The position numbers were made by a program, and so were the translations under genes. Of a DNA stretch of 64,000 bases, positions 6,604 to 52,670 are shown in pieces. How positions within the stretch are numbered: the stretch's first letter is position 1; each line of letters starts with the position of its first letter. The stretch is from contig CM075989.1 in NCBI GenBank assembly GCA_038087875.1, positions 10,728,001 through 10,792,000 on the forward strand, in the 5' to 3' direction. The DNA comes from Malacoraja senta (Eukaryota). The notes below the pieces were generated by a model. The model did not search any database and was not told the DNA's origin. It saw nothing but the letters and a program-made list of their open reading frames with translations.

Positions 6604-6632
6604 CTGATGAAGGGTCTCGACCCGAAACGTTA
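6604..6632 (+). ncRNA. Minimal type I hammerhead ribozyme-like motif in a PLE terminal repeat (6540-6700)
   Basis: CTGATGA-A-GGGTC(TC)GACCC-GAAAC-GTTA: canonical CUGAUGA and GAAA core around a stem II. Stems I and III are minimal; activity is not shown. Confidence 0.6.
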
Positions 6633-7185
6633 CCTATCCATGTTCTCCAGAGATGCTTCCTGACCAGCTGAGTTACTCCCGCACTTTGTGTCCTTTGTGG
6701 TTTTTTACAAATCCAGTATTAGTGATGCATGTTGAACAGGACCCTGCAGTCTTCAACAATTGTGGCTTGCTGGAGCCACGTAAGGCTATTTATTACAGCC
6801 TTTGTTATCAAGAAGAGAGAGTTTTGTAACGGCCTGTTCCTGAAGAAAGCTTCCATTGGGGATGGATTGGGACAAAGATTAAACAGCCTCAGAGATTTGA
6901 AAATTTCCATTCAAAGAGTAAATTACATCATGCAGTGAACCTTTGTGGCTCTGTTGCTGATTCTGAGTTGGAGGGACTGAAATGAGACACTGATTTCTTG
7001 TAAAATCAGTGATTCAATTCACAGGCTCTCTAGTCACATATCCCAGTCAAGAGAGATCCATTTTAGCTACCAGCACATTGGGACAGTCGATGCCGATTCG
7101 GTGGGCCAAATGGCCTGTATCCGTGCTACATGGCTATGGGGGTGGAAATGACAACGATCTGAGGCACATCAGCAACAACTCACAT

Positions 7186-7810
7186 GTAGGAAGGAACTGC
7201 AGATGCTAGTTTAAACCAAAGATAGACGCGAAATGCTGGAGTAACTCAGCGGGACAGGCAGCATCTCTGGAGAGAAGGGATGGGTGACGTTTCGGGTCGA
7301 GACGCTTCTTCAGACTAGTCAGGGGAAAGTGAAACGAGAGATATAGACAGCGATATTGAGAGAGATGGGACAAATGAATGAAAGATATGCAAAACAGTAA
7401 CGATGATAAAGGAAACAGGCCATTGTTAGCTGTTTGCTAGGTGAGAACGGGAACCTGGTGCGACTTGGGTGGGGGAGGGATAGAGAGAGAGGGAGTGCAG
7501 GGGTTACTTGAAGTTAGTGTAATCAATATTCATACCACTGGGTTGTAAGCTGCCCAAGTAAAATATGAAATGCTGTTCCTCCAATTTATGATTAGCCTCA
7601 CTCTGACAATGGAGGAGGCCTAGGACAGAAAGGTCAGTGTGGGAATGGGAAGGGGAATTTAAGTGTTTGGCAAGCAGGAGATCAGGTAGGTCCAGGCAGA
7701 CTGAGCAAAGGTGTTCCGCGAAATGATCGCCCAGTCTACGTTTGGTCTCGCCGTTGTATAAGTGTCCACATCTTGAACAACGGATACAGTAGATGAGGGT
7801 GGGGGAGGTG
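7186..7810 (-). mobile_element. Penelope-like element 3' fragment (GIY-YIG endonuclease C-terminus plus terminal repeat)
   Basis: ORF 7504..7932(-) contains LIYCIRCSRCGHLYNGETKRRLGDHFAEH...GMNIDY, closely matching 53379..54107; followed by the hammerhead-bearing repeat. Confidence 0.9.
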
Positions 7811-9794
7811 AAATGTTCATTCCAAAACATAAAGTCCCAAAGTGCGACAATAGGAAGCCTTTGCCAGGCACTCCGCATCCTGTACAGAGTGGCAGCAATT
7901 AGAAAAAAGATTACTAACAGGATTATAAACAACTTTTGACTGGATTCCCAAAGCCAGATGGTTTAAGGATGCAGTGGAGTTATGTTTGGCTTGGTTACTG
8001 TGATGGGGTTGTTCAGATTGTTAACTCAATTAATCACCCGAAGAGCCCACAATGGTGTCAACCTCTCCTCCAAACAAAGTAAGATTCAGCTGATTTGTTC
8101 GATACATGAATATAAATTAACATCCTTTGCTGTCTGGAAATCAAATCAGATGCTAGAAAAATGACGTAGTTAGGAGCAGCACAGTTGCGCAGCAGGTAGA
8201 GCTGCTGCCTCACAGTGCCGGAGACCCGGGTTCGATCCTGACCTGGGCTGCTGTGTGTGTGGAATTTGCATGTTCTGCCTGTGACTGCTTGGGCTTCCTC
8301 CGTGTGCCGTTCTACCTCTTTGCCACAACGCAATATTCCTGTACACTTGAAAATCTAAGAAACTGCTGGAAATCTAAAATAAAAATAGAAAATGCTGGTG
8401 ATACTCCACAGGTCTGGCCACATCAGTGGCAGTATCTCCTTTGCTAGGGCAACCTTCCCAAGTAAAGGTGCTATGTAAATGCAAATTGTGTTTGTTGTAC
8501 CTTGATCACATGAGCTTTGACCAACGCAGTTTACTGATCGTAATTACCTTAGACTCTGTAATCAAAAAACATTTATGGCAAATTGTTTGCTTTGTATTGA
8601 ATAATCAGTTGGTCTGCCAAGCACTTCCATACCATTTGTTAATTACTGTTTCACTTTTATTGCTAAAAGCCTGTGTAGCGATATGGACAATATGAGGGTC
8701 ATAAGTTACTGTGTACACAGTGACAGACTTGTGCTCCACAGAGACTCTATTAAATCATTGTGATTAGGAGCAATGGAAAATAAGTGACAGCTTTGTTAGT
8801 CCAATTGTGTAGTGTCTATTTGCCCAAGCGCTCGGCTGTATGAACACACAGTAGTCTTTCAATGCACTGTTGAAATAGCATGATTTCTAAAACATCCGGC
8901 TCTTATTTGCAGGGAGAATATTGCCTGCACAGAAGGTGATCACATCTTTTTACCCATCTCCTGCAGGTTCAAGTAGCTTCTGGAAACAATGAACAAACCC
9001 AAGGTCCATGAGTTTCCAGCCGGGTCTGCCCAAGTCCAGCGACCGTTTTTTGATCTGAAGGAGGATCCTGACCCGAAATGTCACCTATCCACTCTTCCAG
9101 AGATGCTGCCTGACCCACTGATAGACACAAAATGCCAGAGTAACTCAGGTGACAGGCAAGCATCTCTGGAGAGAAGGAATGGGTGATGTTTCGGGTCCCG
9201 CTGAGTTACCCCAGCAATTTGTATTTTTGTAAACCAGCATCTGCAGTTTCTTATGTTGACTCTTTTTATTTACTTATTTGTTTATCCTTTTATTTGTTCA
9301 TGGGACGCAGACTTATGGGCAAGGCCAGCGTAGCTTATTGTGTGCAAACTGACGAAGGTCTACAACACCAAAGGGTCATATGTCAATTTGGACAGCAAAT
9401 TTGACCCATTTTCCCTATACACTCAGGGGCAATTTACAGACGCTGAAGAACCTCTTGGCCAACGTCTTTGTGATGTGGGAAGAAACCCACGAGGTCACAG
9501 GGAGATAATGCAAACTCCACATAGACAGCACCCGATGTCAGGAACGAACCCAGGTGTCTGTTCCTATGAGACAGTGGCTGTACTAGGTGCGCCATTGTGT
9601 TGCCTATTGATTCTGGGTCAATGTTGTTGATGTATGTTTGGAGTTGAACCTCCAAATGTCTCTGAATGGATCAGCTATCTCCCCATGGAATCTCCTTGAA
9701 CTGTTGAGATCAGTGCCTCATATGTACATTTAGAAACTCCAGCAGTTGAGAAGACAATAATTGGAAAATGTCAAATCTTCGTTCCGTAATCGAA

Positions 9795-10070
9795 AGAACA
9801 ACTTCCATTTCTATAGCGCTTTTTACAACCACGGGATGCTGTAATAAACCTTACAGCCAAGGAAGTACTTTGGGAGTGTGGTCACTTTTATAAAGTAGAT
9901 AACATAGCAGTCAGTGTACGTGCAGTAAATTCCAAACAATGGTGTGATAACAACCAGACAATCTTATCTATGAAAATGGTTGAGGGATAACTGTTGGCAG
10001 AGGACATGAAGAATACATGCCTACACTTCTTTGAAACAGTGCTGTGGGGCATGTTGTGTCTTGCTGAAAG
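9795..10070 (-). mobile_element. Old Deu-domain SINE (SacSINE1/AmnSINE1-like)
   Basis: Reverse complement resembles the DeuSINE 3' half (...ATCCCTCAACC...GTGACCACACTCCCAAAGTACTTCCTTGGCTGTAAG...GCGCTATAGAAATG), compared against a consensus recalled from memory. Confidence 0.55.
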
Positions 10071-11104
10071 AGCCTTGCTGTTAAAGATGGCACCTTTAGC
10101 AATACAGCTCTGCCTTGGTGGTGTAGCAGAATGTCTGTCTGACCTCTGGGATACAGGGGTTATGGGGAGAAGGCAGTAGAATGGGATTGAGAGGGAAAGA
10201 TAAATAAAGCATGATTGAATGGTACAGTGGACCTGATGGGCTGAATGGCCTAATTCTGCTCCTGGAACTTAGGAACTTTGGCTGCAACCTTCAGGAGGTT
10301 TGTCCTGTGGACATAGAATGATCAACTTCCAGCTCATCGGACTGCTACGTGACAATTTTATCAATATTGATAAAAGCCAAGCATTTCGCACAACCTCTCG
10401 CAGGCTGCAGAGTAAATAACTAACGCGTTATAAAATTGAGAAATCAGATTTCCATTGAGGCATGGATCAATTGGGGCTTGTAAGATTTGAAAGTCACATC
10501 AGAACTTTGTTCTTTGAGTCCCCAAAATGCTTCCTGATATTTTCTCCCATATTTATATTATCCCCCAGGTCAATTTATCTGCTTTCTTGCAATAAGGGAT
10601 GATTGTAGAGGCCCACCCTGTATTGGTTAATGTGCATCACATGACCCTGTAGATAATTCATGGTTAGATGACAATAGGATCCCAACAATGGTCTTCTATC
10701 AGCTGACTCACCAGGGGCAGTAGAGTTGGCCATCATTGGGGCCCTGCTTGATCCCTTTGGAAAATGGCTCAGAGCCATTGAGTCTGGCAAATATATAAAG
10801 GCTCTATGGAAAAGCAAGCAACTGGTACCGACTGAGGGTTGTTGTGGTTGCATTTGGAAGAGGATCCAGAGATGGGGAGCCAAGGATGAACTAGGAAAGC
10901 AGGGTGAGGGTTTTAAGAAGCTGGGGGAGGTGGTGTTGGGAAGAGCGTGGGGCTGCAGTTTTAGTGTTAATGAACTGTTTCATGCCTCGTTACTTCCCCC
11001 TCCGTGGTTGTGATTTCAAACTCTACTCCTGAAGTGTGAGTACAACATTCTCTGCTGTGCATTCACAGGGAGCATCTCACTGAGAGATTCATGTTTTCAT
11101 ATTC

Positions 11105-11325
11105 GTGTGGAATTCATTGCCACAGACGGCTGTGGAAACCAAGTCAATGGATATTTTTAGGGCAGAGATTGACAGATTATTGATTAGTAAGTGTGTCAGG
11201 GGCTATGGGGAGAAGGTAGGAGAATGGGTTTCAGAGGGAATGATAGATCAGCCATGATTAAATGGCAGAGTAGACTTGATGGGCCAAATGGCCTAATTCT
11301 GATCCTACAAAAATTATGAACTTAT
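11105..11325 (+). mobile_element. CR1 LINE 3' end
   Basis: GTGGAATTCATTGCCACAG...GGGGCTATGGGGAGAAGG...GGGCCAAATGGCCTAATTCTG tail with TTATGAAC repeats. Confidence 0.75.
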
Positions 11326-12483
11326 GAACAAGGAACTGCAGCTGCTGGTTTACACAAAAGGATACAAAGTGCTGGAGTAACTCGATGGGTTAGGCAGCTT
11401 CTGTGGAGAATGTGGATAGGGGATGTTGTGGGTCTGTGCTGTCTGTGTGGAGTTTGCACGTTCTCCCTGTGATCATGTGGATTCCTTTCAACATCCCAAA
11501 AATGAGCTGATTGATATTTCAATTGGCCTCTGTAATTAAAGGTGTCCAGCATTGTTTAGAGCAGATAGTCAGAACCTTTTTCCCATGGCAGTAGTATCGA
11601 AAATAGGTGGGACTGGGATTAAGTTAAGAGGAAATTGTTGTAAAGAGGATTTGAGAGAAAATTATTTACCCAGAGAGTAGTTGATATGTGAAACTCACTG
11701 CCAGAGTAGATGGTGGGGTTAGAAACAGTCTCTATGTTGCTGAGATATTTAGACAGACACCAAAATACACATTGCATTGAAGGATTGTACCTTGTGGGCA
11801 AATGGGCTTTATGGAAATAGCCAAAATAGTCAACATGGACATGGTGGACTGAGGGGACCGTTTCTATGGTGTATATCTCTATAGCTATGACTCTACATGT
11901 GGTGGAATCTGGTGGCAGTTGAGGGAGCTGAGGGGACAAATATAATGAGGTAAAACAGGATTAGTATAGAAATGGGTGCTGAGTGGTCAGCATGCACTTG
12001 GAGGGCCAAATAGCCTATTTCCATGCTGTATTTCTCTTTGTCTTCCACTCAAAACCTCCATGAAAACCTTTCCATTGATGATGCTTTATCTTTCTAGAGA
12101 GTGGTTGAAATCTGGAACTGGCTGCCAAAGGAAGTGGTGCCAATAAAACTGGGTACAACACCAATAATAGTTACATTAAGTGAGGTTTGCGATGTTGTCC
12201 TGAATTTAGTGACTCGTTCATGTGTGCGAGATGTGGTGTTGGTAACCTGGGGAGCTGTGTACTCTGCCGCCTCGCTGCAGGTATCTGGCCTTATTGATTC
12301 ATAGCAGCACTGAAGAAACTGTGTAATGTTGGGGATTCCACGTTCTGGATGGGACATTAAACCGAGACCTTGGCTTCTTTCTCAGCAGAATGCTGCACAA
12401 TGTCAATACCACTATTTTGAAGAGGAGTAATGGTGATCTGCCGGGGAACCTCTACATTTATCCGAGGAGCAGATGGAGCCTCT

Positions 12484-12552
12484 AGGGCCTGTCCCACTTG
12501 GGCGTCATTTACGCGACATCATTTACGCGTCACGATGCACGACACGATGCAC
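12484..12552. mobile_element. Truncated end of a Harbinger-type MITE
   Basis: AGGGCCTGTCCCACTTGG...CATCATTTACGC matches the reverse complement of the right end of 49418-49637. Confidence 0.7.
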
Positions 12553-14759
12553 TTCAGCCTGGATTTTATACACACCCTGTGATTGAGGTGAGATCATTAC
12601 CCACGAGGTCATGACTAACCCAGTAATCTTTTCTGCTTAAGAGCCACAGACTGCTTCTTCATGAGTCTGTGACATTATGATTTGGTTGGACACAGACCTA
12701 GTGAGGCAATTACTGGTGAATTGTGATATGTGATATGCAAATTGTGGTATGCAAATGTGATACCTCCTCAGTTGCTCGCTTCCTGCGTTATGTGAATAGT
12801 GACTTCCACACAAAGCTTTCTTAACATTCAATTGGTGCATGCACCTCCAGTGCCCCAACCTTGTCAGGATGGTATGTTGATGAAGCGCGTAAGATCTCGG
12901 AGGTGAATTCTGTGAGAATAGGAATCGATGTTGGTTCGAGTCGAAACCCTTCTTCAGACAGAGTCAGAGGAGAAGGAAACTAGAGGCATGAAATGGTTCA
13001 GAACAAATCAGAGCCGACACCGATGTCCAAGGAATGGTGGAGCCCACAATGGACCATTGTTGGCTGTGTAAGAGGTGATAATGAAGGGATATATGGATAC
13101 AAACAGTGGAACCAGCAGGATGGCTGGGGGTGGGGTGGTGGAGAGAGAGAGAGAGAGAGGGGGGGAGGGAATGCAATGCAGAGGTTACTTGAAACCAGGG
13201 ATGAACTGTGGTTTGCTGGTATGCCTGCCACTGGACAGTCGGGCATGAGAATGCATTCCTGCTCTGGCACTTTGATATCCACTCAGGTAACTTTCCCTGG
13301 ACTCCACCTCATCCACACCACACACGCCATTCTCCACCATGATCTTTATCTTACAGCAATCTTTGCTTTTCCCAATGATTCTCAATTCCTAACCAGTTCT
13401 TTCAGTCTTCTTCGCTGCAATAAAGTGAACTCCCCTTGGCAGCTCCGAGAAGATAGACTACCTAGAAATGGGTCCATCAACTGCCGAGCTCCCATTTATT
13501 CTCCCCATTTACAATCAATTCCCTCTGGATTCTACCACTCAACAGCACACCAGGGTATATTGATGCTGGCCATCAGAGTAAACATATAAATCCCATCCTC
13601 TCACTTTTTTCCCTGTAACTTGTTCTCTGACCCAGATCATTGAACTCCATTCTGACTCCCGTACCACTTTTAGCAGCCAGTTAACCCACTAACCTGCACG
13701 TCCCTGGGACGTGGGAGAAAAGTGGAGCACCTGGGGGAAACCCATACAATCACAGGGAATCATCACACACGCACACAGCACCCGAGGTTAAGATTGAGCC
13801 TGGGTGTCTGGAGCTGTGAGTCAACAACTAGACTAGCTACACAATAGTGCATGCTGAATGCGACTAACGTTGACTGATGCATCAGATCCTGCCCTCACTG
13901 TCGGTTGCCGTGTTTTGCGTCTCTCTGCCAACAGCTTCTCATTACCAGAGGCTCCCAGGAATGTAATTGGCAAATGTCCTCCGTCACCCATTGCCTCTGA
14001 CTGTTCGTAATGAAACACAAAATTGGAGATCTTGTTGGAGCAGAGCTCTTGATTGCTTTCCTAGCTGGAGGCTATCTTTCTGAATTGTGAGTGTGGCAGG
14101 GCCTGGGCTTGTATTGATCACAAGTCTCGAGTTCGGGATGCTGGGGTGCTCTGCACCCACTCTTTCAGCTGTGTTCTGCTACTGGTAATTGGTTTATCTC
14201 TGACAACATACAATTTGAGTTTACTGAGTGAGGTTGTTCCTGGACACACTAGTAATAACAACGTGTTTCTATAACGTGTGAATAAAAAGGATTCAAAGTA
14301 TGTGCATCACCAGAAACTGCTCATAGAATCACACAATCGGCTCACCTCATCCATGTCAAATGTGGTGCCTGTCTTCGCTAATCCCATTTGCCTGCATTAG
14401 TTCAGGATGCTTCTACACCTTTCTTTTCCAAAATACCTTTTAAACATTTGCCACCGCCACCACCTTCTCCAGCAGTTTGTTGCAGATGTTTCAACGGTTC
14501 AATAGTGCTTTATCATCACATCTGCAAAACACCGTGAAATTATTTTTCATTGCGCCAGATTTGGTGCCATTTTCAAAGTCCGACTGCGTACTAAATCTTA
14601 TGGAGCGGTGACCGATCCAGGCAACCCCAGGCTGCCTGCAGGATTTCCAGCCATCGCCTTCATCTGGATTGTTTATCAAACCGACGTCCCTTTCCTCGCC
14701 CGGCCATCTTTGAGCCTCAGAGCGCCTCCTGCAACCGACCTTGAGAGCACGGAAGGTAA

Positions 14760-15283
14760 AGGGGCTGTCCCGCTGCGGCGACCTAATTGGTGAGTTTAGG
14801 AGAGTTTGAAAAAGTGTCATGTTGAAGACCTCCTTCGACTATGTGGAAGATCTCCTTCGACCTCCTTGGACTATGTTGAAGACCAGCTTCGACTAGCTTC
14901 AGGAAAATTGGACACCGAATAGTGGAGAGTGAAGACGACCTCCTTCGACCTCCCTTCGACTATGTTGAAAACTATCTTCGACTACCCTCGATTACTTATG
15001 AATAACATGCCGACCTACTACGACCTACCTTAACTAAACCTACGAGTAAAAAAAATATCGATTTTTTCCATGGCGACCTATTTTTATACAAGTGGGCATT
15101 TTTCAGCATGTTGAAAAATACGCCGCAACCTAGCTGAGGCCTCGAGTACGCGGGGACTACTCTTGAGCATGAAGGAGAGTTACAAAGGCCTTCTAGGACC
15201 TCGTGGCGACCATGCTGCGAGTATCAGTCGAGGGCAAACTCTTCTGAACTTGCGGATTAGGTCGCCGCAGTGGGACAGCCCCT
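14760..15283. mobile_element. PIF/Harbinger-type MITE (524 bp)
   Basis: TIRs AGGGGCTGTCCC(G/A)CTGCGGCGACCTAAT; TAA TSD (14757-14759 / 15284-15286); inverted near-copy at 57450-58007. Confidence 0.85.
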
Positions 15284-15286
15284 TAA

Positions 15287-15914
15287 AGGGACCTACTTTG
15301 CGAGTTTAGGAGAGTGTCATGGTCTTGTTGTATCGCCGAAGTAGAACACCTCCTACGACCTCCTTCGACTATGTAGAGAACCTCCTACGAATATGTAGAA
15401 GACTTCCTAGGACCCTGTAGAAGACCTCCTTCGACTATGTTGAAGACTGGCTTCGACTATCTACGATTTACTCGCTGATGCTCTCTGGAAAATTGGACAC
15501 CGAATAGTGGAGAGTGAAGACGACCACCTTCGACTACCTTCGACTACCTTTGACTAGACTAACACTATCTACGACTACCGTCGATTACCTTCGACTTCCT
15601 TTGATTACCTTTGATTGCCTTTGATTACCTACGAATAACATGCTGACCTACTATGATCCACTTCGACTAAACCTACGAGTAAAGAAATATCGGGTTTTTT
15701 CCATGTCGACCAATTTTGACTCGCGGACAATTTTCAGCATGCTAAAAAATACTCCTCGACCAAACTGAGGCCGCGAGTACGCGGGAACTTCTCTCGAGCA
15801 TGAAGGAGAGTTACAAAGACCTCCTAGGACCACGTGTTGACCATGCTGCGAGTTTAAGTTGAGCGCAAACTCTCCTAAACTCGCCAATTACGTCCCCGCG
15901 GTGGGACAGGCCGT
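15287..15914. mobile_element. Second, related Harbinger-type MITE directly abutting the first
   Basis: Same internal blocks (GAAAATTGGACACCGAATAGTGGAGAGTGAAGACGACC); right TIR GTGGGACAGGCCGT followed by TAA; left TIR partly deleted; shares the TAA at 15284-15286. Confidence 0.8.
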
Positions 15915-16039
15915 TAAAACTCTGGTTCACTTTCCTACCACCATTGCCCCTGGCGACCGTTGTCTCCGGCTCTGGGCGACGGTCAGGGGCTGGGCTTGAT
16001 GGCTTCACCCTGAAAGGCCACGCAGATCGCTAATCTTTC

Positions 16040-16215
16040 AATAGACAATAGGTGCAGGAGTAGGCCATTTGGCCCTTCGAGCCAGCACCGCCATTCAATG
16101 TGTTCATGGCTGATCATCCCCAATCAGTGCCCCGTTCCTGCCTTCTTCCCATATCCCCTGACTCCGCTATTTTTAAGAGCCCTATCTAGCTCTCTCTAGA
16201 ACCTGCCTCCACCGC
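16040..16215 (-). mobile_element. CR1 LINE 3' tail
   Basis: CAATAGACAATAGGTGCAGGAGTAGGCC... is the reverse complement of the tail at 18020-18150. Confidence 0.85.
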
Positions 16216-17243: not shown

Positions 17244-17244
<1 letters not shown>

Positions 17245-17273: not shown

Positions 17274-17274
<1 letters not shown>

Positions 17275-41559: not shown

Positions 41560-42035
41560 TTTTTAACTTTTAGAGATACAGTGTGGAAACAACCCCCTTG
41601 GCCCACCAAGTCTGCAACGACCAGCGATCACCCATACATTGGTTCTAGCCCACATTATAGGGACAATTTACAGAAGCCAACTCACCTACAAACCTGGGAT
41701 AGACACAAAAAGCTAGAGCAACTCAGCAGATCAGACAACATCTCTGGAGAAAAGGAGTAGGTGACGTTTTGAGTCGAGATCCTTCTTCAGACCCCTGACT
41801 CTCAGTCTGAACAAGGGTCTTGACCCGAAACGTCATCTATTCCTTTTCTCCAGAGATGCTGCCTGACCCGCTGAGTCACTACAGCTTTTTGTGCCTATCT
41901 TCGTTTTAAACCAGCATCTGCAGTTCCTTCCTACAAAAACTACAAACCTGCACGTCTTTGGAATGGGGGAGGAAACCGGAGCACCAGGAGAAAACCGACG
42001 CGACCACAGGGAGAAGGTACAAACTTGGTACAGTT
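41560..42035 (-). mobile_element. HE1 SINE interrupted by a fold-back PLE derivative
   Basis: HE1 sequence resumes in register after 41939. Confidence 0.85.
41697..41939. mobile_element. Fold-back PLE terminal-repeat element
   Basis: Inverted arms of ~95 bp; exact 11-bp TSD CTACAAACCTG at 41686-41696 / 41940-41950. Confidence 0.88.
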
Positions 42036-42234
42036 ACATGTACAGCTCCGTACACGACAGTTGCACATAGCAGTGATAGCGTCCTACTCTGGAGGAGGCA
42101 TTATGGTTATTCAGGTTAGTTTACTGCCGTTTTGTGAACTCTCTCTCAATGCTTGTGACTCGTGAAACGATCCCTACTTATTTCTCCAAATAAAATCCAT
42201 AGCCTTTTCCCTTGTTGATACTCTGGAAGTCAAA

Positions 42235-43150
42235 CCAAGCCAGGACTGATGATCAACGGTAGGCCCCTAAGGAGTGTAGTGGAACAGAAGGGCCCAGGAG
42301 TAATCATACATGGTTCCCTGAAGATTGACAAATTGGTGAAGAGGCTTTTGGCATGCTGGCCTTCATCAGTCAGGGCACTAACTGTAGATGGTGGGATATG
42401 AAGTGCTGGAGTACCTCAGCAGATCAGGCAGCATCTCTGAAGAACATGGATAGATGACGTTTCGGTACAAGACCCTTCAGGCTGAAGAAGGGTCCCGACC
42501 CGAAACATCATCTATCTATGTTCGCCAGAGATGTTGCCTGACCCGCTGAGTTACTTCAGCACTTGGTGTCCTTTTGTGTAATCCAGCATCTGCAGTTCCT
42601 TGTTTCTACGTGGAACTTGGGATGTTATGTTGCAGTGGTGGTGAGGCCACACTTGGAGCATTATGTTCACATTCGATCATCTTGCTATTGGAAAGATGTC
42701 ATTAAACTGGGAAGAATGCAGAATAGATTTATGAGGATATTGCCAGGACTTGAGGGTCTGAGTTGTAGGGAGAAGTTGGACAAGCTGGGACTTTATTCCT
42801 TGGAATGTAAGAGACTGAAGGGTGATCTTATACAGGTGTATAAAATCATGAGGGGCATAGATAGGGTGAATGCACAGTCTTTTACCTGAAGTTGGGGAAT
42901 CCAGACAGAGGGCATAGATTTAAAGTGTGCAGGAAATGGTTTAGTAGGAACTCGAGGGGCAACATTTTCATACAGAGGGTGGAACTAGATGAAACGAGCT
43001 GGTTGGGGCAGGTTCAATAATAACATTAAAAGAAGCTTGTACAGGTACATTGACCAAAAAGGCTTTGAGGAATATGGGATAAACGCAGGCATACCAGACA
43101 AACTTGGTTGGGCATTTTAGTTGGCATGGGCCTGTTTCAGTGTTGCTGTC
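42235..43150 (+). mobile_element. Degenerate CR1 LINE, interrupted at ~42400-42610 by a fold-back PLE derivative
   Basis: ORF 42563..42889: VRPHLEHYV...LGRMQNRFMRILPGLEGLSCREKLDKLGLYSLECKRLKGDLIQVYKIMRG. Confidence 0.85.
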
Positions 43151-44504
43151 ATGTGTGATGTCATGTCGGGTGAGGAAATACTTCCCATTAGCTTGGATGA
43201 GTGCAGTTACAACCACAGTTAAGAAGTTGAACACGATTACTATAAAGCAGCCCACTCTATTGACCTTCAATTCATTGCCTAAATACCTCCCCACCAGAGC
43301 TGCAGTGTGTACTGCCCATACATGCACTGCAGTTACTCACCAGACTATCCTGACAGTACCTCCCAACATCTTCCACCCAGAAGAACAAGGGGAGCAGCTA
43401 TAGGGCAATAACATCATCATGGTTGCCCATCCAATGCACACCATCCTGATTTAGAAATATATGGCACTTCCTTCATCACTGTGAGACCTAAATCCTGGGG
43501 CACTCTCCCCGTAGGCACCATGAGAGCAGTAACTCCCAAAGACCCCAGCAATTCCAGAAGATGACACAGCACCTCCTTCTCAATTAGGGGTGGACAACAA
43601 ATGCTGGCCTTACATTTCTAATTGTGCCTTTTAATGCAGCAAATTATCATATGGCATTTTGGGGATTGTTTGACAAATGTGATGTGAGGGTTTGGTGTAA
43701 ATTCCTCTGGGGGAAAATGAGTTGGAGAGGTGTAGGGAGGGAATTCCAGAGCTCTAAGCCCAGGCAGCTCAACGAATGGTGGATGGTGACTTACAATTGT
43801 GGATGTACAGTTTGTCAGTATTGGTAGATCACGGAGGTGTTGAAGATTAAGAACATAAAAAGGACAGGAATAGATCAGGTGTTGCCATGAGCCTTCTCTG
43901 CTGTTCAGAGAGGTAATGGCTCTCTGAACCCAATACCTCACCTCAGCATTCAACCCAATCCCCATGCCCCGAGATCTCCAAGTTATTTTAAACCCGCCTG
44001 ATCCCAGACCTGATAATGCTCATCACCTGAACATCCTTAACCCCCAATTGGGAATTCCAAAGATTCACCAGCTTCTGTGCCAATTCATTCCTCCTCGTCT
44101 CAATCCATGGCTGACTCCTCATCTGGCGACCATGTCCCTGGTTCCTGTTCCACCCTGAGGAAACAACTCTTGGCGTCTACCTGACCAACAACTCTCTGGT
44201 TCCCACCGGTCTCAGTGAGATCACCACTGTTTCCCTAACTCCAGGAGGTACAGGTCAATGTTAGATAATCCTCAAAGGACAACTCCCCATCTCGGGAAAC
44301 TCTCTCGTGAACTTATCTAGATATAGACGCCTCGAAGCACTGGAAAAGCACCCCCAACACTAACACTCTGCCCAAGCGTCCAGGCTTGGGGATGGAGAGG
44401 ATCTCAGACATGCAAGGTATTTGAATCAACAGATGTGGCAAACGTGTTTCCATATTGGGTTCAACACATATAGACTGTCATTAATAAATATATAAGCGAA
44501 ACAA

Positions 44505-44765
44505 GAGAGTTGTGAATTTCACCCAGAGAGTTGTGAATTTGTGGAATTCCCTGCCGCAGAGGGCAGTGGTGGCCAAATCACTGGATGGATTTAAGAGAGA
44601 GTTAGATAGAGCTCTAGGGGCTAGTGGAATCAAGGGATATGGGGAGAAGGCAGGCACGGGTTATTGATTGGGGGCGATCAGCCATGATCACAATGAATGG
44701 CGGCGTTGGCTCGAAGGGCCGAATGGCCTCCTCCAGCACCTATTTTCTATGTAAGTTCTATGTAA
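44505..44765 (+). mobile_element. CR1 LINE 3' end
   Basis: CCCAGAGAGTTGTGAATTTGTGGAATTCCCTGCC...GGCTCGAAGGGCCGAATGGCC tail. Confidence 0.85.
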
Positions 44766-46444
44766 CTCCCCAGAGAGTGATGACAATATAGAACTTGCTA
44801 ACACAGAAGAATGGCTCAGTTTAAAAGAGAGCAGGATAAACACAAGAAGAGGCGTGGACGGGTGTGTTGATGGAGTTGAGAGGGTGAGGATGAAGTAATA
44901 TGGGAATAGTCCTGACTATTCATTTAATTCTGTGTGCGAAGTTACAGCTTAGACATATGCCACTGTGGGAAGTACAAAGAGATATTTCTTGGGAGCCTTT
45001 TATTTGAGAGCTCAATTTTCCCCTTGTTGTTCAGTAACAAGGTTAGACCGAGACAGCTAATAAGAGCAGAGGGCACTGTTTACTTCACACACTGCATTTC
45101 TTCTACACACGACATTTCAGCTGTGGAATCAATTGAAAAAAATAGCTAGTTAATCGTCATGAGCAGCAGAACTTGTGTTGGGGTTTAATGTAGATCCAAG
45201 TATGCCAAGAGGTATTCTTGCATGCTGTCCAATTAACATGAAAATGCATTGGCGCAGTTTGGAGAACAGTTGGAATAATAGAGTCTTAACCTTCTCCGAT
45301 TCAAAGCCTAACCTCCTTGGTTCCTTGTTATGAGAGAAGGTTAGGTTTGTGTCACAGAATGTTTCCATAGCAACAGTGCTAGGCACTCAACTCACATTGC
45401 ACATTAATAGAACAACTCAAGTGACAGCATACAATTTCAAAATGACACTTTACAAATTATGTATCCATATAAAAGTTTTGAGAGAGTCTGTCATACTTCA
45501 TTTTGAATGCCTCATTCTAGATGTCACAATGATGTGTGTCAAAGGCACACATGTATATTGAAAAATAAATATACGTAGGCAGTTATATAGCGCTGTTTCT
45601 TTTTACTGACCAAGATTAAGTTTACAAGAGCTTTCTCATCTGCTGAGCCTTCCTCCCCAACACTGCAATTAAATCTTGGTGACCACAAGTTGTGAAGATT
45701 TCAGCACATTGACTTTGTCTTAAAGCCTTAGTGACAGAATTACCTAATTAGTAGAATATTACGGCTTGCTGCAAGCTTTACTACTCCAACATCACAGGGG
45801 ACTTGTTAATATATGGATTATTGACTGTAACATTTTAGAGAAAAACTACTGTTGTAACCTGCAATTTTCTGTTCTTTCCAAATTAACAACATAAGAGACT
45901 AGAGATGCTAGGATCTTGAGCAAAAACAAAGTGCTGGAGGAACTCGGGACCAGGCAGCATCGGTGAAGGGAATGGACAAACGACATTTCAGGTCGCGACC
46001 GTTTGAAACGGGGTACTGATTGGGAATGATCAGCCATGATCACATTGAATGGCGGTGCTGGCTCAAAGGGCAAACTGGCCTACTCCTGCACCTATTGCCT
46101 ATTGTCTATTGTCATTTCGCTCCACAGATGGCCCCTGACCCGCTGAAATGCTCCAGCACTTTGTTTTTTGCGAACAATTTCTATTCTTTTTTGCAAAAGA
46201 TATTTGCAACAACATCAGGTTCTCATTTTAAAGGTGTTCGTTGGTGATGTTACCACAAATAAAGAATTTATTTTTGGATAAATGAAGATACACAAATCTC
46301 CATCAAATCTATCACAATCTACAACATGTAAGTATGAGGACGTCAGACCCTCCCTTAAACCTGGCCGAAGCTCTATTTCAGTCTTATACTTTCCCCACAA
46401 TGATTGATAGAGTCTCACCTTTGAACGAGTCTGCCCTTACATGT

Positions 46445-46652
46445 GTAAGAAGGAACTGTAGATGCTGGTTTAAACCGAAGATAGACATAAAAGCTGGAGT
46501 AACTCAGCGGGTCAGGCAGCATCTCTGGAGAGAAGGAATGGATGACGTTTCGGGTCGAGACCCTTCTTCAGACTCGAAACGTCACCCATTCCTTCTCTCC
46601 AGAGATGCTGCCTGTCCCGCTGAGTTACTCCAGCTTTTTGTGTCTATCTTCA
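46445..46652. mobile_element. Fold-back PLE derivative with an intact hammerhead-like core on the minus strand
   Basis: 46543-46571(-) reads CTGAAGAAGGGTCTCGACCCGAAACGTCA; TSD GCCCTTAC(A/T)TGT at 46433-46444 / 46653-46664. Confidence 0.85.
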
Positions 46653-46789
46653 GCCCTTACTTGTACCCTGTAGGTTTAGGTTTATTATTGTCACGTGTAC
46701 CGAGGTACAACGAAAAGCTTTGTTTTGCATGCAATCCAATCAGATCAGATAGTACTGTACCCGGTGTTACAAAGGCTGATCAAATGTTG

Positions 46790-47105
46790 GCGACGCAGTG
46801 GTGCATCTGGTAGAGCTGCTGCTGCTGCTGCACAGAGCTGGAGACCTGGGTTCGATCCTGACTTTGGGTGCCAACTTTGTGGAGTTTGCACGTTCTCCCT
46901 GTGACAGCATGTGTTTCCTCCGGGTGCTCCGCATTCCTCCCACATCCCAAAGACGTGCAAGGTTGTAGGTTAATTAACCCTCTGTAACTTGCCTCTATTT
47001 TGCAGGGAGCGGATGCCAAGGTGGGATAACGTAGAAGTCGTGGTTAGTGTGGACTCTATGTGCTCATGGGGCAGTTTCCATGCTGTAGCTCCAAACTAAA
47101 CCAAC
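46790..47105 (+). mobile_element. HE1-type V-SINE
   Basis: GGGTTCGATCC B-box and V-domain GTGGAGTTTGCACGTTCTCCCTGTG. Confidence 0.8.
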
Positions 47106-49417
47106 ACAAAATGGAGATCAATCACAAACATGTGAAAAGAAAAACTGATTCGAGAAACTAATGTATGAAAATAAGTTGATCTGTGACCACATTGACGTTC
47201 TATCTACAGGATATGGGACGCACCAGTTACTGGTGCTTCAAAGAGACCAACTACAGCCAAAGTACATCCACCTATTGTTAACTGAATGAGACAATAGCAG
47301 TGGGGTGGCCAAAAATTATGCTGTATGTTTTATTCATCTTTTTCCTGCCACATTTGTGAAAGTATTCTAGTCTGATCAGCATCAACTTTCCTCAAAGAGA
47401 ATCTGGTCCTTGTTAGTTTTTACAAGAGGATTTCCTGTTATGGTTTTGAAATTGTTGCAGGAACACACAGATCAAGATTTATTTATCCCTGATGTTAAGT
47501 TTAGAAACCGGATGGATTTCAGCATGGATCCATAGACCCATATGGGGAGAAAGCAGGAATGGGGTATTGATTGTGGATGACAACATTGAATGGCGGTGCT
47601 GGCTCGAGGGGCTGAATGGCCTACTCCTGCACCTATTGTCTATTGTCATTCATCAGGGATGCAATGTTGCATTGACGCAATTCGTCTCCTGCAGGGTTCT
47701 GCAGTCGCAGGTAGCAGTGACGAGTCTCGTCACTTATATAAAATGCACTCAACATAATAAACCTCCCTCAGGTGCTAGGCAGGAATGTTATCAAACAAAA
47801 TTCAACACTGAGAGACAGAGGAGATAATAAGGCAGGTGATTTACAGCTTAGTTGAAGAGTTCAGCTGAAGAGGCATCTTAAGGAAAATGAGAGAAGTGAA
47901 TAGTTTAAGGAGGGAATTCAAGAGCTTGACTTCTTGGCCAGAAGGCACAGCTGCTAGTGGTGGAATGATTAAATTAGGGAGTTTCAGGAAGCCATGAGTT
48001 GGGAAACAAAAAGTTTGACAGTGCCAGTAGAAGCTCAACGAATCAATCATGTTCATTTTTTTTCTTTTATAAATTAATTTGCAATGAGCTATTCATTCAT
48101 GCTTCTAAATCGCAAAGCAAAGAAGCTTGAACTGATCAATATTTCCTCATAGGGCAATTTCCATATCCCAGGAGTAAATGTAATGAACCTTTGCTGAATT
48201 GCCCCTGAGGCATTTATATCTTCCCTGAGCTAAGAAGATGAAACTCTTAAGTTTAACATTTTCGAGGCCAAAAAAACTGTTTGATTAGGACTTTATCAAC
48301 CATACTAAATATTGATTCCTTCCCCCACCACTGTGTTTGCAGTGTGCATCAAATACAAAATACACTGCAGATATCTGTCCAGGTCACTCTGGCAGCATCG
48401 TCCCAACCAGCAACTTCTATCATTAAGCAAAAGCAGCAGATGCATGGGTCCTGCGTCATCCTTGGGTGTAAATCCTGGATCTCGTTGTCTAATGGCATCG
48501 GGAGAGTGCTTCCACTAACATCAGCTCAGGAAGGCAGCTCACCACCATCTCCCAAGGGCAGTATGAAAACACGACCATTAGTGAGTAGAGGTAGAGGTTG
48601 GCCACTCAGCCTCTCAAATCTGCCCTGCGATTCAATGTGATCACCACTGATCAGACCCTTGCCTCAATTCTTGCCATTTCCCCATACCCTTCAATTCCCT
48701 TATGTCCATTTTCTAATCTTGCAAAAATGTACCAGTCCTCTCGTTAAATACCTCCAATGATCTGCATGGTCATGACTCAGTGATGGAGATGGAATCAGCA
48801 GTCGCTCGGCTGTCAAAACCTCTCAATCTCTTTCTGACATCTCCTCTATGGTTATAACTAGTATTCCTACCTTTCAGATTCCATCTCTCCTTGCAACATC
48901 TCATTTTGCGTCCTAATTATTTCCAGTATGTTCCCACTGACTCTCTGTGTTTCTTGTTCAAGGACATACAAGAGTTGAATGCCAACACTCATTAGTCTCA
49001 CACCATTTAAACAATTTTCTGATTTTCTAGTCATTCTAGCAAAGCTGATAACTTCGCCCACATTATGCTCCATCTGGCAGCTTTTCACCCACTCAATTAA
49101 TTTTGTGACCTCCTTGTAACTTACCATTGCACCTGTCTCTCTATCATCAGCACGCTTGAATCCAGTCTCTTCCGAAGATAGACACAAAATGCTGGAGTAA
49201 CTCAGCCGGTCAGACAGCATCTCTGGAGAAAATGAATAGATGACGTTTCGGGTCGAGCCCCGTCTTCCGACTGAGGGTCAGGGAAGAGAGAAAGTAGAGG
49301 TCACCCAGATGCTGTGGGCAAGTTTTCACTGGTGAAGACCTGAACGTGAGAGCGTAGCCTCAGGATAAAGGGATAGTCGTTGAAGATTGATGTGATCTAT
49401 GGATACTGAGTTATTTA

Positions 49418-49637
49418 AGGGTCTGTCCCACTTGGCTGTCATTTGCACGTCACGCAGATGGCGTGCAAAGATTTTGTACATCACAAAATCCTGCGATGCC
49501 GCGCGTCACTGCCTACGTCATCGCGCACCATGCGCGCGTAATGCACACCATGCGCGCATCACGTGCGTGTCACGTCGTGATGCGTAAATGATGTTGCGTA
49601 AATTACACGCAAATGACGGCCAAGTGGGACAGGCCCT
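49418..49637. mobile_element. CpG-rich Harbinger-type MITE (220 bp) inside a decayed CR1 tail
   Basis: TIRs AGGG(T/C)CTGTCCCACTTGGC(T/C)GTCATTTG; flanks TTA / TAA. Confidence 0.8.
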
Positions 49638-50273
49638 TAAGTGTTTTCAAGGCTGGGACAGCCAGAATTCTTTGGGCTATAAGGGAATCCAAGGTCAAGT
49701 TTACTGTCAAGGTTTACTGTCAAGACAGTGAGGTACAGATACAAAGAAAATCCAATAAGCAGCATCACAGGCAAATAGAGACCAACAATGCACAAAACCA
49801 TAAATTAAACATGAATTACACCTAAATAACACATAAAGTATACAAGACAGAGTAAAGAAAAAGGACTGTGCTAAAAAGAGAGATGAGAGGTTAGAGAAGG
49901 TGCATGTGAACCTCTGTCTACCAGGAAGGACAAGTCAAGGGAGGAGGTGTAAGGACAGGTGTTGCATCTCTTGCAGTTGCAGGGGAAAGCAAACAAAAAA
50001 TATCATCAGCTGATAGTCAATGTTGGTTGAGAAATGGCAGCCTTGGTTACAGGCTTGCTGACTCTTGTTGGTGCAATGCCAGTTTCATCGTATATCCTGG
50101 ATTAAACAGCACGCTTCTATCCTTCTCTCCCTCTCCATTGTGGGTTGACATGACCATCTTTGATGCATCACGCCTTCCAATGTCCACCTGGAAATGGACA
50201 CGACTCCTCATTGTCCTTTGGTGGATTCTACATAACAACATTCCTCTTCTTTATAATAGATTAAGAACATTAA

Positions 50274-50850
50274 ATCATAATCATAATCACACTTTATTAG
50301 CCAAGTATGTTTTGCAACATACGAGGAATTTGTTTGCCATATGGTCATACAAATAAAAAGCAACAGAACACACAAAATACATTTTAACATGAACATCCAC
50401 CACAGTGACTCCTCCACATTCCTTACTGTGATGGAAGGCAAAAAAAAAAGTTCCATCTCTTCCCTTCTTTGTTCTCCCGCGGTCAGGGGCCTCGAGCCTT
50501 CCGTTGACAGGACGATCTTGACTCCCGTAGCCGGCGGCGGGCCTCCTCGTCAGGACAATCAAGCTCCTGCTTCGATGGGGATGTCAGCTCCCCACGCCGG
50601 CGATTGGACCCCGGGTCAGCGCTGGTCGAACATCGTGCGGTTTTGGAGCTCCCGACTTGGCCCCTCCCGAGACTGCGAGCCCTTGGTGTTAAAGTCCGCA
50701 GGCTGCGGTTGGAGCATCGATCCCAGGCAAGGGATCAGCTCCGATGTAAGTCCACGTCCCCGCGGTGGGGTTCAAAGTCAGTCCCGAGCAAGGCCTCCAG
50801 CTCTATGATGTTAGGCCGCAGAGCGACGAGATAGAATCGCAACTCCGGCA
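50274..50850 (-). mobile_element. Second copy of the GC-rich non-autonomous retroelement
   Basis: Shares AACATGAACATCCACC(A/C)CAGTG...GGAAGGCAA, GGCAAGGGATC and TAGGCCGC blocks with 1073-1866; (ATTATG)n tail on the minus strand. Confidence 0.6.
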
Positions 50851-51048
50851 ATGAAGAACAGATTCCATTTAGCAAAAGTTTCAATGATTTTACTCTTGAG
50901 TGTTTCCATCTTCAGAGTTCCTGGGAATTCCAGGACACCTCCCAAAGCTAACAAAGCTCAAATACTGAGAAGTTTAGGTTAGTTTAGTGTAGTTTATTGT
51001 CACATGTACCGAGGTACAGTGAAAAGGTTTTGTTGCATGCTAACCAGT

Positions 51049-51800
51049 CAATAGACAATAGGTGCAGGAGTAGGCCATTTGGCCCTTTGAGCCTCACTAT
51101 TCAATGTGATCATGGCTGATCATCCCCAATCAGTACCCCATTCCTGCTTTCTCCCCATATCCCCTATCTTTAAGAGCCCTATATAGCTCTCTCTTGAAAG
51201 CATCCAGAGAACTGGCCTCCACCGCCCTCTGAGGCAGAGAATTCCACAGACTCACAACTCTCTGTGAGAAAAAGTGTTTCCTCGTCTCAGTTCTAAATGG
51301 TTTACCCCTTATTCTTAAACTGTGGCCCCTGGTTCTGGACTCCCCCAACATCGGGAACATGTTTTTTGCCTCTAGCATGCCCAAACCTTTAACAATCTTA
51401 TATGTTTCAATAAGATTCCCTCTCATCCTTCTACACTCCAGAGTGTACAAGCCCAGCCGCTCCATTCTCTCAGCATATGACAGTCCCGCCATCCCGGTAA
51501 TTAACCTTGTAAACCTACGCTGCACTCCCTCAATAGCAAGAAATGTCCTTCCTCAAATTAAGGGACCAAAACGGCACACAATACTCCAGGTGTGGTCTCA
51601 CTAGGGCTCTGTACAACTGCAGAAGGACCTCTTTGCTCCTTTACTCAATGCCTTTCGCTTTCTTCACTGCCTGCTGTACCTGCATGCTTACTTTCATAGA
51701 CCAATGAAGAAGGACCCCCAGATCCCGTTGTACTTCCCCTTTCCCCAACTTGACACCATTTAGATAGTAATCTGCCTTCCTGCTTTTGCTGCCAAAGTGG
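51049..51800 (-). mobile_element. CR1 (HER1-like) LINE 3' portion inserted into a LINE 3' UTR
   Basis: ORF 51130..51525(-) QRRFTRLITGMAGLSYAERMERLGLYTLECRRMRGNLIETYK...RVVSLWNSLP; the host repeat resumes at ~51801. Confidence 0.92.
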
Positions 51801-52104
51801 AAAGACAATACATGATTACAATCGAGCCATCCACAGTGTACAGATACATGAGAAAGGGGATAACGTATAGTGAATGCTATTGTTGTAGAGATTTAAAAGA
51901 GTTGGGCAATTGTAATGCGTGATTGCAGATCCGCTTCTGTGGCCAGGGCTCTAAGAGTCACGGTCATCCCTTCCCATCCTACTTCCGCTGGAAAATACCA
52001 AATCCACAATTCTCACCTCCGTGTTGCAGCAGGGGAAGCTCCAATCGCACTTATTCTCCCCCCACCCTCTTCCCATTCAACAAAAAGGTAGCTGTGCTGT
52101 GAAT

Positions 52105-52670
52105 ACAGGCCGACCCTCCAGTGCAGAGTGGAGCAATGTTGGAGGTGTTCAAGAAGGAACTGCAGATGTTGGAGAATCGAAGGTAGACAAAATTGCTGGA
52201 GAAACTCAGCGGGTGCGGCAGCATCTATGGAGCGAAGGAAATAGGCAACGTTTCGGCCCGAAACCCTTCTTCAGACTGAAACTCAGCGGGTGCGGCAGCA
52301 TCTATGGAGCGAAGGTCTGAGGAAGGGTTTCGGCCCGAAACGTTGCCTCTTTCCTTCGCTCCATAGATGCTGCCGCACCCGCTGAGTTTCTCCAGCAATT
52401 TTGTCTACCTGCAATGTTGGAGGTGCCTCTTACAGGTGAGACATTAAACAAAATCCCTTTCTGCTCCTGTGGATGTGTGTTCAGGTTCACTATGGCACTA
52501 TTTCCTAGGAACAGCAAGTTCTCTATCTTGCCCCGGACAATATTTATTTCTCCCGTGAATGAAGCTAAAATAAAAATTGCTGTGGGATTTGTTGGGCATG
52601 CTGTATCTTTCACACTTGGGATGTCTTCAAAGGGATATGACAGGAGCTATAGAAATGTGCGTCTTTTTAC
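52105..52670 (+). mobile_element. Old Deu-domain SINE interrupted by a fold-back element
   Basis: TGTTGGAGGTGCC...GAGACATTAAAC...ATGGCACTATT...ACAATATTTAT resembles the Deu domain. Confidence 0.55.
52148..52410. mobile_element. Fold-back PLE terminal-repeat element
   Basis: Core CTGAGGAAGGGTTTCGGCCCGAAACGTT at 52317-52344; exact 15-bp TSD GCAATGTTGGAGGTG at 52133-52147 / 52411-52425. Confidence 0.9.

What the first reader, a model, noticed from the sequence alone, without database searches (positions are those of the whole stretch)
6604..52344. Minimal hammerhead core with a conserved stem II, variable loop and palindromic stem III
Seen: CTGA[T/A/G]GA-A-stem-GAAAC-GT[C/T] at 6604(+), 25493(+), ~25426-25453(-), 46543-46571(-) and 52317(+). 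The free N7 position varies (T, A, G). The hairpin keeps GGG...CCC pairing while its interior changes (GGGTCTCGACCC, GGGTCCCGACCC, GGGTCTTGACCC, and GGGT-TTCG-GCCC with a UUCG loop in a second subfamily). The stem III region is only the palindrome ACGT or AACGTT. Established: CUGANGA/GAAA/UH is the hammerhead core, and PLE-associated minimal variants can cleave as dimers through a palindromic stem III. Caveats: an extra A precedes stem II and stem I has only 2-4 possible base pairs, so monomeric folding is doubtful.
Basis: partly seen in the sequence, partly recalled or inferred. Interest (0 to 1): 0.72.

Follow-up and report, generated by a model that had tools for sequence, protein, structure and literature searches.

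The report
Fish Penelope stubs carrying minimal hammerheads
The motif is a known small self-cutting-RNA (hammerhead) sequence in the end repeat of a Penelope-like jumping gene of a probable skate; most copies are decayed and likely inactive insertion stubs, and the one less ordinary feature is that many stubs begin just before the ribozyme, which possibly marks where the element's RNA starts.

Summary
The motif sits in a 95-130 nt repeat with 50 arms in 35 clusters, 7.6% of the window. The repeat is the 3' pseudo-LTR of a GIY-YIG Penelope-like element (Neptune/Nematis type); two ORF remnants end 110 and 191 nt upstream of cores.

The extra A and the ACGU palindrome are published traits of Penelope minimal hammerheads (PMC4209133). 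Related invertebrate elements carry the motif in 19 of 54 loci (antisense 0), with covarying stems.

The window's copies look like relics. Only 12 of 33 keep the full core, and CpGs decay equally inside and outside the ribozyme. No insertion 5' end and no RNA end maps to the cut site.

One lead: 16 of 28 bounded 5' ends fall 0-9 nt upstream of CUGA, possibly a transcription start copied by strong-stop-like cDNA (untested). The scan found this kind of element, and this lead, earlier in other shark and skate windows. New member of a known kind.

The parts
6604..6631 (+). Minimal hammerhead C3 to H17, intact core, in a solo pLTR stub with native pyrimidine-rich upstream (about 6563-6696)
7286..7313 (-). 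Minimal hammerhead, intact core (one stem II pair broken), 191 nt downstream of a PLE ORF stop
7183..7503 (-). 3' UTR / pseudo-LTR with the roughly 35-nt tail of a 5'-truncated Penelope-like copy
7504..7809 (-). Decayed GIY-YIG endonuclease end of a Penelope-like ORF
   Evidence: weak Pfam E=0.09; tblastn 54% to a shark PLE protein, E=2e-32
25318..25593 (.). One inverted-pair insertion (UUCG-loop subfamily): minus arm with tail (core 25425-25452), plus arm without tail (core 25493-25520), duplicated junction, 8-bp TSD at 25318 and 25586
46433..46660 (.). One inverted-pair insertion: minus arm from -3 with tail (core 46544-46571), plus arm from about +19 without the CUGA half, 8-bp TSD at 46433 and 46653
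52133..52425 (.). One three-arm inverted insertion (UUCG-loop subfamily): cores at 52247-52274(-) and 52317-52344(+), 15-bp TSD at 52133 and 52411
53274..54107 (+). 5'-truncated Penelope-like ORF end: CX4CX2C linker plus GIY-YIG endonuclease, 277 codons open
   Evidence: PF01541 E=7e-4, below the gathering score; 56-58% to shark PLE proteins
54108..54314 (+). 3' UTR / pseudo-LTR of that copy; hammerhead core at 54217-54244, 110 nt after the stop, palindrome decayed to ACAT
41686..41950 (.). Inverted-pair insertion with 11-bp TSD; both cores carry a mutation
42380..42605 (.). Inverted-pair insertion fused at the core start; plus-strand core at 42482-42509
25830..25976 (.). Inverted-pair insertion; plus-strand core at 25881-25908 with U16.1 mutated
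4106..4214 (+). Solo stub starting at about -3, 13-bp TSD
35655..35768 (+). Solo stub starting between -7 and -3, 9-bp TSD
20930..21056 (-). Solo stub starting at -3 behind 10 nt of filler, 10-bp TSD
1930..63934 (.). Span of the whole family in the window: 50 arms in 35 clusters, 4,854 bases

Best explanation
The motif is the minimal type I hammerhead in the 3' pseudo-LTR of a GIY-YIG Penelope-like retroelement, and the copies in this window are short, mostly decayed insertion stubs that were likely reverse-transcribed from uncleaved RNA and are likely inactive. Shown: the motif follows the endonuclease ORF on the same strand; stubs end at two places (about +90-100 and +115-125 from C3); many are head-to-head pairs with the tail on one arm; some have 8-15 bp TSDs. 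Inferred from the Anolis Penelope biochemistry (PMC11167929): the element's endonuclease nicks the target, its reverse transcriptase starts inside the RNA at either of the two end sites, and it copies back through the intact ribozyme. Inferred here: most cDNAs stop 0-9 nt beyond the core, most likely at the RNA's 5' end (a start site; about 40%). The cDNA then either joins the target or pairs by microhomology with itself or a second cDNA, which gives the inverted pair. In the parent element the ribozyme would cut after C17 only as a two-RNA dimer joined by the ACGU palindrome, and probably only with help from the element's protein. This was not tested.
For: Location: cores lie 110 and 191 nt behind GIY-YIG ORF stops on the same strand. 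The ORF's best hits are shark PLE proteins at 56-58%, then RT-bearing PLE proteins; the linker is CX4CX2C.
Relatives: 19 of 54 scorable loci have the motif on the sense strand, 17 of them 88-172 nt past the ORF; antisense 0; shuffles 0.05. All 19 have the extra A, 14 have ACGT, and 16 have a stem I of 3-6 bp although the descriptor did not ask for stem I. Across 17 aligned motifs, 90.6% of cells pair against 67.3% shuffled, and all four stem I pairs change on both sides.
Window: non-CpG core columns are 93.3% conserved against 84.1% in the flank (p=0.014).
Relic state: 12 of 33 arms keep the full core; CpG columns are 74.3% conserved inside and 74.2% outside the ribozyme. G12 is mutated in about 22% of reads of run X22.
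Uncleaved template: 0 of 28 bounded 5' ends lie within 5 nt of the cut site, and X22 shows no pile of molecule ends.
Insertion anatomy: tail on one arm only in 8 of 10 inverted pairs; TSDs in 9 of 35 clusters against 9.8% by chance (p=0.006).
Against: No cleavage assay was possible. The fish stem I is only 2 bp, shorter than in most relatives. The hammerhead fold is not the predicted ground state: the dimer scores -7.1 to +1.3 kcal/mol in the seven younger copies (+22.6 in an old one) against -14.6 to -79.8 for the best co-folds, so the fish lineage may have lost activity. The downstream block +42 to +77 is almost as conserved (88.8%) as the core, and the read-based core-versus-flank contrast is not significant (0 of 18 against 15 of 97, p=0.065). 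35 of 54 related loci had no descriptor hit and were not examined one by one. No RT domain of this element lies in the window and no genome is held. A poly(A) library with random fragmentation is a weak test for cleavage ends, and X22 is a related organism, not shown to be the same species. The start-site step is unproven: the initiator consensus fits only 5 of 14 native upstreams, and an extra 5' G is not enriched (6 of 16, p=0.14).
Confidence: 0.85

Rival explanations
1. An independent non-autonomous retrozyme or SINE-like element: the 95-130 nt unit is transcribed, self-cleaves, circularises and spreads in its own right.
For: Very high density. Copies start and end at fixed places and have their own TSDs. 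Head-to-tail joints restart at -2 to -6 in run X1 contigs (15-24 contigs per joint). bioRxiv 10.64898/2026.07.22.740005 reports tandem retrozymes in its one sampled chondrichthyan and derives them from pLTRs.
Against: A cleaved or circular template would give boundaries at +28; 0 of 28 lie there. No two intact same-strand cores lie closer than 1,257 nt. Reads over the repeat come equally from both strands. The same sequence continues into PLE ORFs twice.
Confidence: 0.07
2. The 5' pile-up is not a start site. It comes from fold-back or self-priming at the near-palindrome around the core start (TCAG-T-CTGA), from a reverse-transcriptase stall, or from an endonuclease cut there.
For: 12 of the 16 near-core 5' ends are inverted junctions. 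PMC3846280 (passages) reads palindromes at inverted junctions as self-priming. No cap-G excess was found.
Against: Four solo, TSD-bounded stubs also start at -7 to -1. Tandem restarts fall at the same place. Neither needs a palindrome.
Confidence: 0.35
3. The 5' boundary is a 3' splice site (pyrimidine tract plus YAG), as in D. virilis Penelope, where the intron ends at the 5' end of helix I; splicing would supply a longer stem I and switch the ribozyme on.
For: YAG at -4..-2 in 6 of 14 native upstreams, behind pyrimidine tracts. D. virilis precedent (PMC4209133). C at +30 is kept in 41 of 42 arms although its native partner at -3 is usually A.
Against: No shared exon lies 5' of the stubs, and three of four TSD-bounded stubs have no room for one. 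No GT..AG joint appeared among the best-supported joints shown (522 more not shown). 8 of 14 upstreams lack YAG.
Confidence: 0.12
4. Chance resemblance: a repeat that happens to contain the core letters and never derived from a ribozyme.
For: No Rfam hammerhead model matched at E up to 5. The hammerhead fold is not the minimum-energy fold. Stem I is 2 bp.
Against: Distant relatives (37-45% protein identity) keep the same core at the same place with unrelated, covarying stems.
Confidence: 0.02

Closest known systems
Minimal hammerheads (min-HHR) in pLTRs of metazoan Penelope-like elements (Cervera and De la Pena 2014, PMC4209133)
   Same: Type I core, no helix III, palindromic 15.2-16.2, unpaired base between 9 and 10.1, G10.1-C11.1, location in the pLTR, thousands of dispersed single motifs, opposite-strand pairs close together.
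   Different: Stem I is 2 bp and stem II 4 bp (reported for S. mansoni: 4-5 and 7-8 bp; D. virilis also has a 2-bp helix I). Cartilaginous fishes are not named in the text read or in the 2 of 3 supplement files searched.
Poseidon element of Anolis carolinensis, PAc (Frangieh et al. 2024, PMC11167929)
   Same: Two 3' ends about 30-40 nt apart (tail). Uncleaved RNA as template. No RNA-seq ends at the cut site.
   Different: Different clade (this one has the cysteine linker). PAc cleavage was shown in vitro, only with the protein present; nothing was assayed here. A 5'-end pile-up at the ribozyme edge is not mentioned in the parts read.
EN+ PLE insertions with inverted 5'-truncated pLTR, one-sided tail and 8-10 bp TSD (PMC3846280; PMC8557442)
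   Same: Head-to-head arms, tail on one arm, TSD, palindrome or microhomology at the junction.
   Different: Here most insertions consist of the pLTR arms alone, with no ORF between them, at about one arm per 1.3 kb.
Dimer-cleaving small PLE hammerheads (Lunse, Weinberg, Breaker; known here only from its title and the summary in review PMC6765202)
   Same: Palindromic, extremely short stem III; dimer-dependent cleavage.
   Different: The paper is not held, so I could not check whether this family is among those tested.
Non-LTR retrozymes (PMC7229834, listing only; bioRxiv 10.64898/2026.07.22.740005)
   Same: Type I hammerhead in a short non-coding repeat derived from a pLTR.
   Different: Retrozymes are tandem arrays of complete ribozymes; the window has solo and inverted stubs.

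Membership tests
PLE minimal hammerhead (min-HHR) | Core C3-U4-G5-A6-N7-G8-A9, G12-A13-A14, A15.1, U16.1, H17 | tested here: met
   Majority base at every core column; complete in 12 of 33 arms
PLE minimal hammerhead (min-HHR) | Helix II closed by G10.1-C11.1 with one unpaired base before it | tested here: met
   Extra A in 33 of 35 arms; G-C in 17 of 17 aligned motifs; extra A in 19 of 19 relatives
PLE minimal hammerhead (min-HHR) | No helix III; self-complementary 15.1-16.1 for dimer pairing | tested here: met
   ACGT is the majority, often CpG-decayed in the window; ACGT in 14 of 19 relatives
PLE minimal hammerhead (min-HHR) | Short helix I | tested here: met
   2 bp in fish copies, with wobble-compatible variants at both pairs; 3-6 bp and covarying in 16 of 19 relatives. 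The fish form is at the short extreme.
PLE minimal hammerhead (min-HHR) | Located in the pLTR behind a PLE ORF, sense strand | tested here: met
   Two cases in the window
PLE minimal hammerhead (min-HHR) | Self-cleavage after H17 as a dimer or with protein help | not testable with these tools
   No assay. No RNA ends at the site in run X22 (weak test). Dimer fold not favoured by nearest-neighbour energies.
EN+ Penelope-like element | C-terminal GIY-YIG endonuclease | tested here: met
   PF01541 E=7e-4, below gathering; matches residues 624-889 of a 900-aa RT-bearing homologue
EN+ Penelope-like element | Telomerase-like RT in the same ORF | tested here: inconclusive
   Both window copies are truncated before the RT core; longer homologues carry RVT_1
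EN+ Penelope-like element | Inverted 5'-truncated pLTR, one-sided 30-40 nt tail, TSD | tested here: met
   Tail on one arm in 8 of 10 pairs; TSD in 9 of 35 clusters
Neptune clade | CX2-5CXXC linker between RT and EN (shared with Nematis, PMC8557442) | tested here: met
   CX4CX2C at residue 144 of the ORF remnant
Neptune clade | RT phylogeny separating Neptune from Nematis | not tested
   No RT in the window; no tree built
Non-LTR retrozyme | [quoted passage not shown] | tested here: not met
   Closest same-strand intact cores are 1,257 nt apart; tandem joints exist elsewhere in run X1
Non-LTR retrozyme | Unit-length circular RNA with ends at the cut site | tested here: inconclusive
   0 of 28 insertion 5' ends near +28; circular RNA not testable in a poly(A) run
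Rfam hammerhead families | Match to a curated hammerhead covariance model | tested here: not met
   No hammerhead family among 16 matches at E up to 5

The most novel reading that the evidence does not exclude
The element's transcript starts 3 nt before the ribozyme core, so the hammerhead is the first thing in the mRNA. The stubs are integrated strong-stop-like cDNAs that run from the internal priming sites back to the cap. Because cleavage needs two RNAs, the ribozyme acts as a concentration-dependent off-switch: it removes the capped first 31 nt when transcripts and protein are abundant, rather than releasing the template. That would explain why cleaved RNA is never seen in insertions. In the full-length relative L018 the first ATG lies inside the core, and in PAc the cut falls 26 nt into the ORF (PMC11167929), so cleavage there would remove the start codon.
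Probability: 0.15. Interest if true: 0.6.

Novelty: new member of a known kind. Interest (0 to 1): 0.22.

Why it matters
As a ribozyme finding it matters little: the class, the extra A, the palindrome and the link to Penelope elements have been in print since 2014. I found no paper describing it in cartilaginous fishes (searches; subscription papers, Repbase and closed supplements not seen). The family makes up 7.6% of this window, so it is a major repeat to annotate and mask; its inverted pairs give sub-threshold microRNA-like Rfam hits. Its value is as a large natural record of Penelope insertion ends. The function of PLE hammerheads is still called unclear (PMC8557442). The fixed 5' boundary at the ribozyme's edge, with none at the cut site, makes two open questions cheap to test: where the RNA starts, and whether cleavage serves or limits transposition.

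Tried and rejected
Rfam scan: no hammerhead hit; only hairpin-driven microRNA-like matches below gathering scores. tRNA/SINE head: ARAGORN found none. Whole genome: not held, so copy number and genome-wide junction counts could not be made.

More copies of the fish repeat: 0 in metagenome contigs and 0 in prokaryote genomes. The 17 viral-contig matches to a 16-mer mostly match the profile over little more than the motif itself (output cut at 17 rows) and were set aside as chance. Two weak viral loci (L081, L082) were not used. Run X21 laid 0 reads and is no test.

Extra A as evidence against a hammerhead: rejected. Stem II variants as covariation inside the window: rejected; they are one-sided or loop changes. 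A longer stem I in the old copy at 18668: rejected, because the upstream letters belong to its TSD. Cap-templated G: 6 of 16, not significant. The initiator count had an off-by-one error on the minus strand and was redone (5 of 14). 5' ends of inverted pLTR copies in invertebrate loci scatter from about -270 to +46, with a few at -9 to +1, so the pile-up is not confirmed outside fish. The depth step in X22 across -6..0 (814 to 3,678) fits the pile-up but is confounded by subfamilies with other upstream sequence and by read clipping.


Full report
OBSERVATION. All five sites exist as described. The core pattern occurs 11 times against 1.20 +/- 0.99 in shuffles; ten are family copies. A profile built from 15 copies finds 51 hits. 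After dropping one duplicated stub there are 50 arms in 35 clusters covering 4,854 bases, 7.6% of the window. Positions below are relative to C3 = 0; the predicted cut is after +27.

WHAT CARRIES THE MOTIF. The core at 54217(+) lies 110 nt behind the stop of a 277-codon ORF remnant (53274-54107), and the core at 7313(-) lies 191 nt behind a second remnant. The longer remnant has a weak GIY-YIG hit (E=7e-4, below gathering) and a CX4CX2C linker. It has 81 longer homologues, led by shark proteins at 56-58% and followed by RT-bearing proteins of other animals. PMC8557442 (passages) assigns such a linker to Neptune and Nematis. The host is a cartilaginous fish by inference; 'skate' rests on an unchecked earlier scan note for this genome. 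The repeat is therefore the 3' pseudo-LTR of an EN+ Penelope-like element.

INSERTION ANATOMY. 3' ends fall at +88 to +102 (21 of 50) and +115 to +125 (19 of 50); in 8 of 10 inverted pairs exactly one arm reaches the outer end (profile-based ends are approximate). TSDs of 8-15 bp flank 9 of 35 clusters against 9.8% by chance. This layout is described in PMC3846280 and PMC8557442 (passages). PMC11167929 (parts 1-2 of 4 read) shows that the two ends are two internal RT start sites in the Anolis element.

IS IT A HAMMERHEAD? PMC4209133 (parts 1-2 of 4 read) lists as recurring traits a base between 9 and 10.1, G10.1-C11.1, and a palindromic 15.2-16.2. All are met, so the extra A supports the assignment. 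As an independent test I fetched 80 related loci (the best 80 of 445). 54 had the ORF end and at least 250 nt downstream; 19 carry the motif in sense, 0 in antisense, 0.05 expected from shuffles. All 19 have the extra A, 14 have ACGT, and 16 have a stem I of 3-6 bp. The other 35 had no hit and were not examined. An alignment of 12 of these 19 (five near-duplicates and two distant hits left out), L018 and 4 window copies gives 90.6% paired cells against 67.3% shuffled and 26-43% for slid controls. Stem II and the palindrome were required by my descriptor, so only the stem I covariation is non-circular; all four of its pairs change on both sides. In the window, non-CpG core columns are 93.3% conserved against 84.1% in the flank (p=0.014, columns not independent), but the block +42 to +77 reaches 88.8%. 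The read-based contrast is not significant (p=0.065). Rfam gives no hammerhead match.

IS IT ACTIVE HERE? Probably not in these copies. 12 of 33 arms keep the full core, and CpG columns decay equally inside (74.3% conserved) and outside (74.2%) the ribozyme. In poly(A) run X22 of a related organism (about 6% of the run read; 15,549 reads laid), G12 reads A in about 22%, similar to 16-17% at a CpG outside the ribozyme. Both strands are read equally, and no place shows many molecule ends (a weak test). Stem I is 2 bp. In eight copies folded, neither the monomer nor the dimer hammerhead is the predicted ground state (core tertiary contacts are not modelled). No two intact same-strand cores are closer than 1,257 nt, so a cis-dimer has no close partner in the window. 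Published behaviour fits: monomers inactive and dimers weak (PMC4209133); PAc cleaves only with its protein, cleavage is not needed for insertion in vitro, and no RNA-seq ends were found at the site (PMC11167929); 1 of 9 Xenopus dimers cleaved (bioRxiv 10.64898/2026.07.22.740005, parts 1 and 3 of 5 plus passages). The Lunse et al. dimer paper is not held; I saw only its title and a review's summary (PMC6765202, passages).

THE ONE LEAD. Of 28 arms whose 5' end is fixed by an inverted partner or a TSD (classified partly by eye), 16 begin at -9 to 0 (13 at -3 to 0), 3 further upstream, 9 downstream, and none within 5 nt of the cut site (p about 1e-8 against a uniform null, which is a crude null). 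Head-to-tail joints in run X1 restart at -2 to -6. X22 depth rises from 814 at -10..-6 to 3,678 at 0..+4, though other subfamilies confound this. My preferred reading is a transcription start at about -3 with strong-stop-like cDNAs (about 40%). D. virilis Penelope has a TATA-less internal promoter with an initiator in its pLTR (PMC2377424, passages). Against this reading: the initiator consensus fits 5 of 14 native upstreams, an extra G is not enriched (6 of 16), and invertebrate relatives show scattered ends. Fold-back at the near-palindrome, a stall or a cut (35%), and a splice acceptor (12%) remain open. I noted this idea before seeing that an earlier agent had reached it on another genome; that agreement is not independent evidence.

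NOVELTY. The ribozyme class, its host element and the insertion layout are published. Five library searches found no paper on this family in sharks or skates. The one paper holding 'shark' with the other terms uses it for the ribozyme's name (PMC6155905, passages). Two of three supplement files of PMC4209133 name no shark or skate (file 1 not searched), the PMC11167929 supplements held as text had no hit for my terms, and bioRxiv supplements are closed; unseen files may list it. The scan has reported this kind of element at least eight times in other shark and skate windows. Verdict: new member of a known kind, interest 0.22.

Noticed in passing
window 30294-33525: A young 5'-truncated LINE (833 open codons at 30455-32956 with RVT_1 E=2e-41 and a weak zf-RVT hit; poly(A) tail) is flanked by a 156-bp direct duplication (30294-30449 and 33370-33525, 98% identical): an unusually long target-site duplication.
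   Followed up: partly
run X22 laid on window 41792-41935: 161 reads from about 90 starts show a tandem unit of about 66 nt that ends near +78 (plus 7 further letters) and restarts at G12, so it lacks the CUGA half of the ribozyme: a satellite-like derivative of the pLTR.
   Followed up: no
L018:260-3406: Apparently full-length relative: 1,049 open codons whose first ATG lies inside the hammerhead core (positions 6-8) of the 5' pLTR.
   Followed up: partly
L013:2030 (-): A different, canonical-looking hammerhead (no extra A, 6-bp stem I, 8-nt palindromic stem III region) lies antisense near a PLE remnant.
   Followed up: no
window 14741-15924 and 57435-58010: A second repeat family of about 550 bp, two tandem copies and one distant inverted copy, 71-85% alike; not identified.
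   Followed up: no
window 25453-25492: The junction of the inverted pair holds a short duplication of the core start, suggesting repeated template jumps during joining.
   Followed up: partly
repeat position +30 and block +42 to +77: C at +30 is kept in 41 of 42 arms without a native pairing partner, and the downstream block is nearly as conserved as the core; possibly the protein-binding or priming signal.
   Followed up: no
window 49887-49987 (-): Small tblastn matches to a shark PLE protein, possibly a third ORF scrap.
   Followed up: no
window 51130-51552 (-): Open frame that resembles the 3' end of a CR1/L2-type LINE (recalled likeness; no Pfam hit).
   Followed up: no
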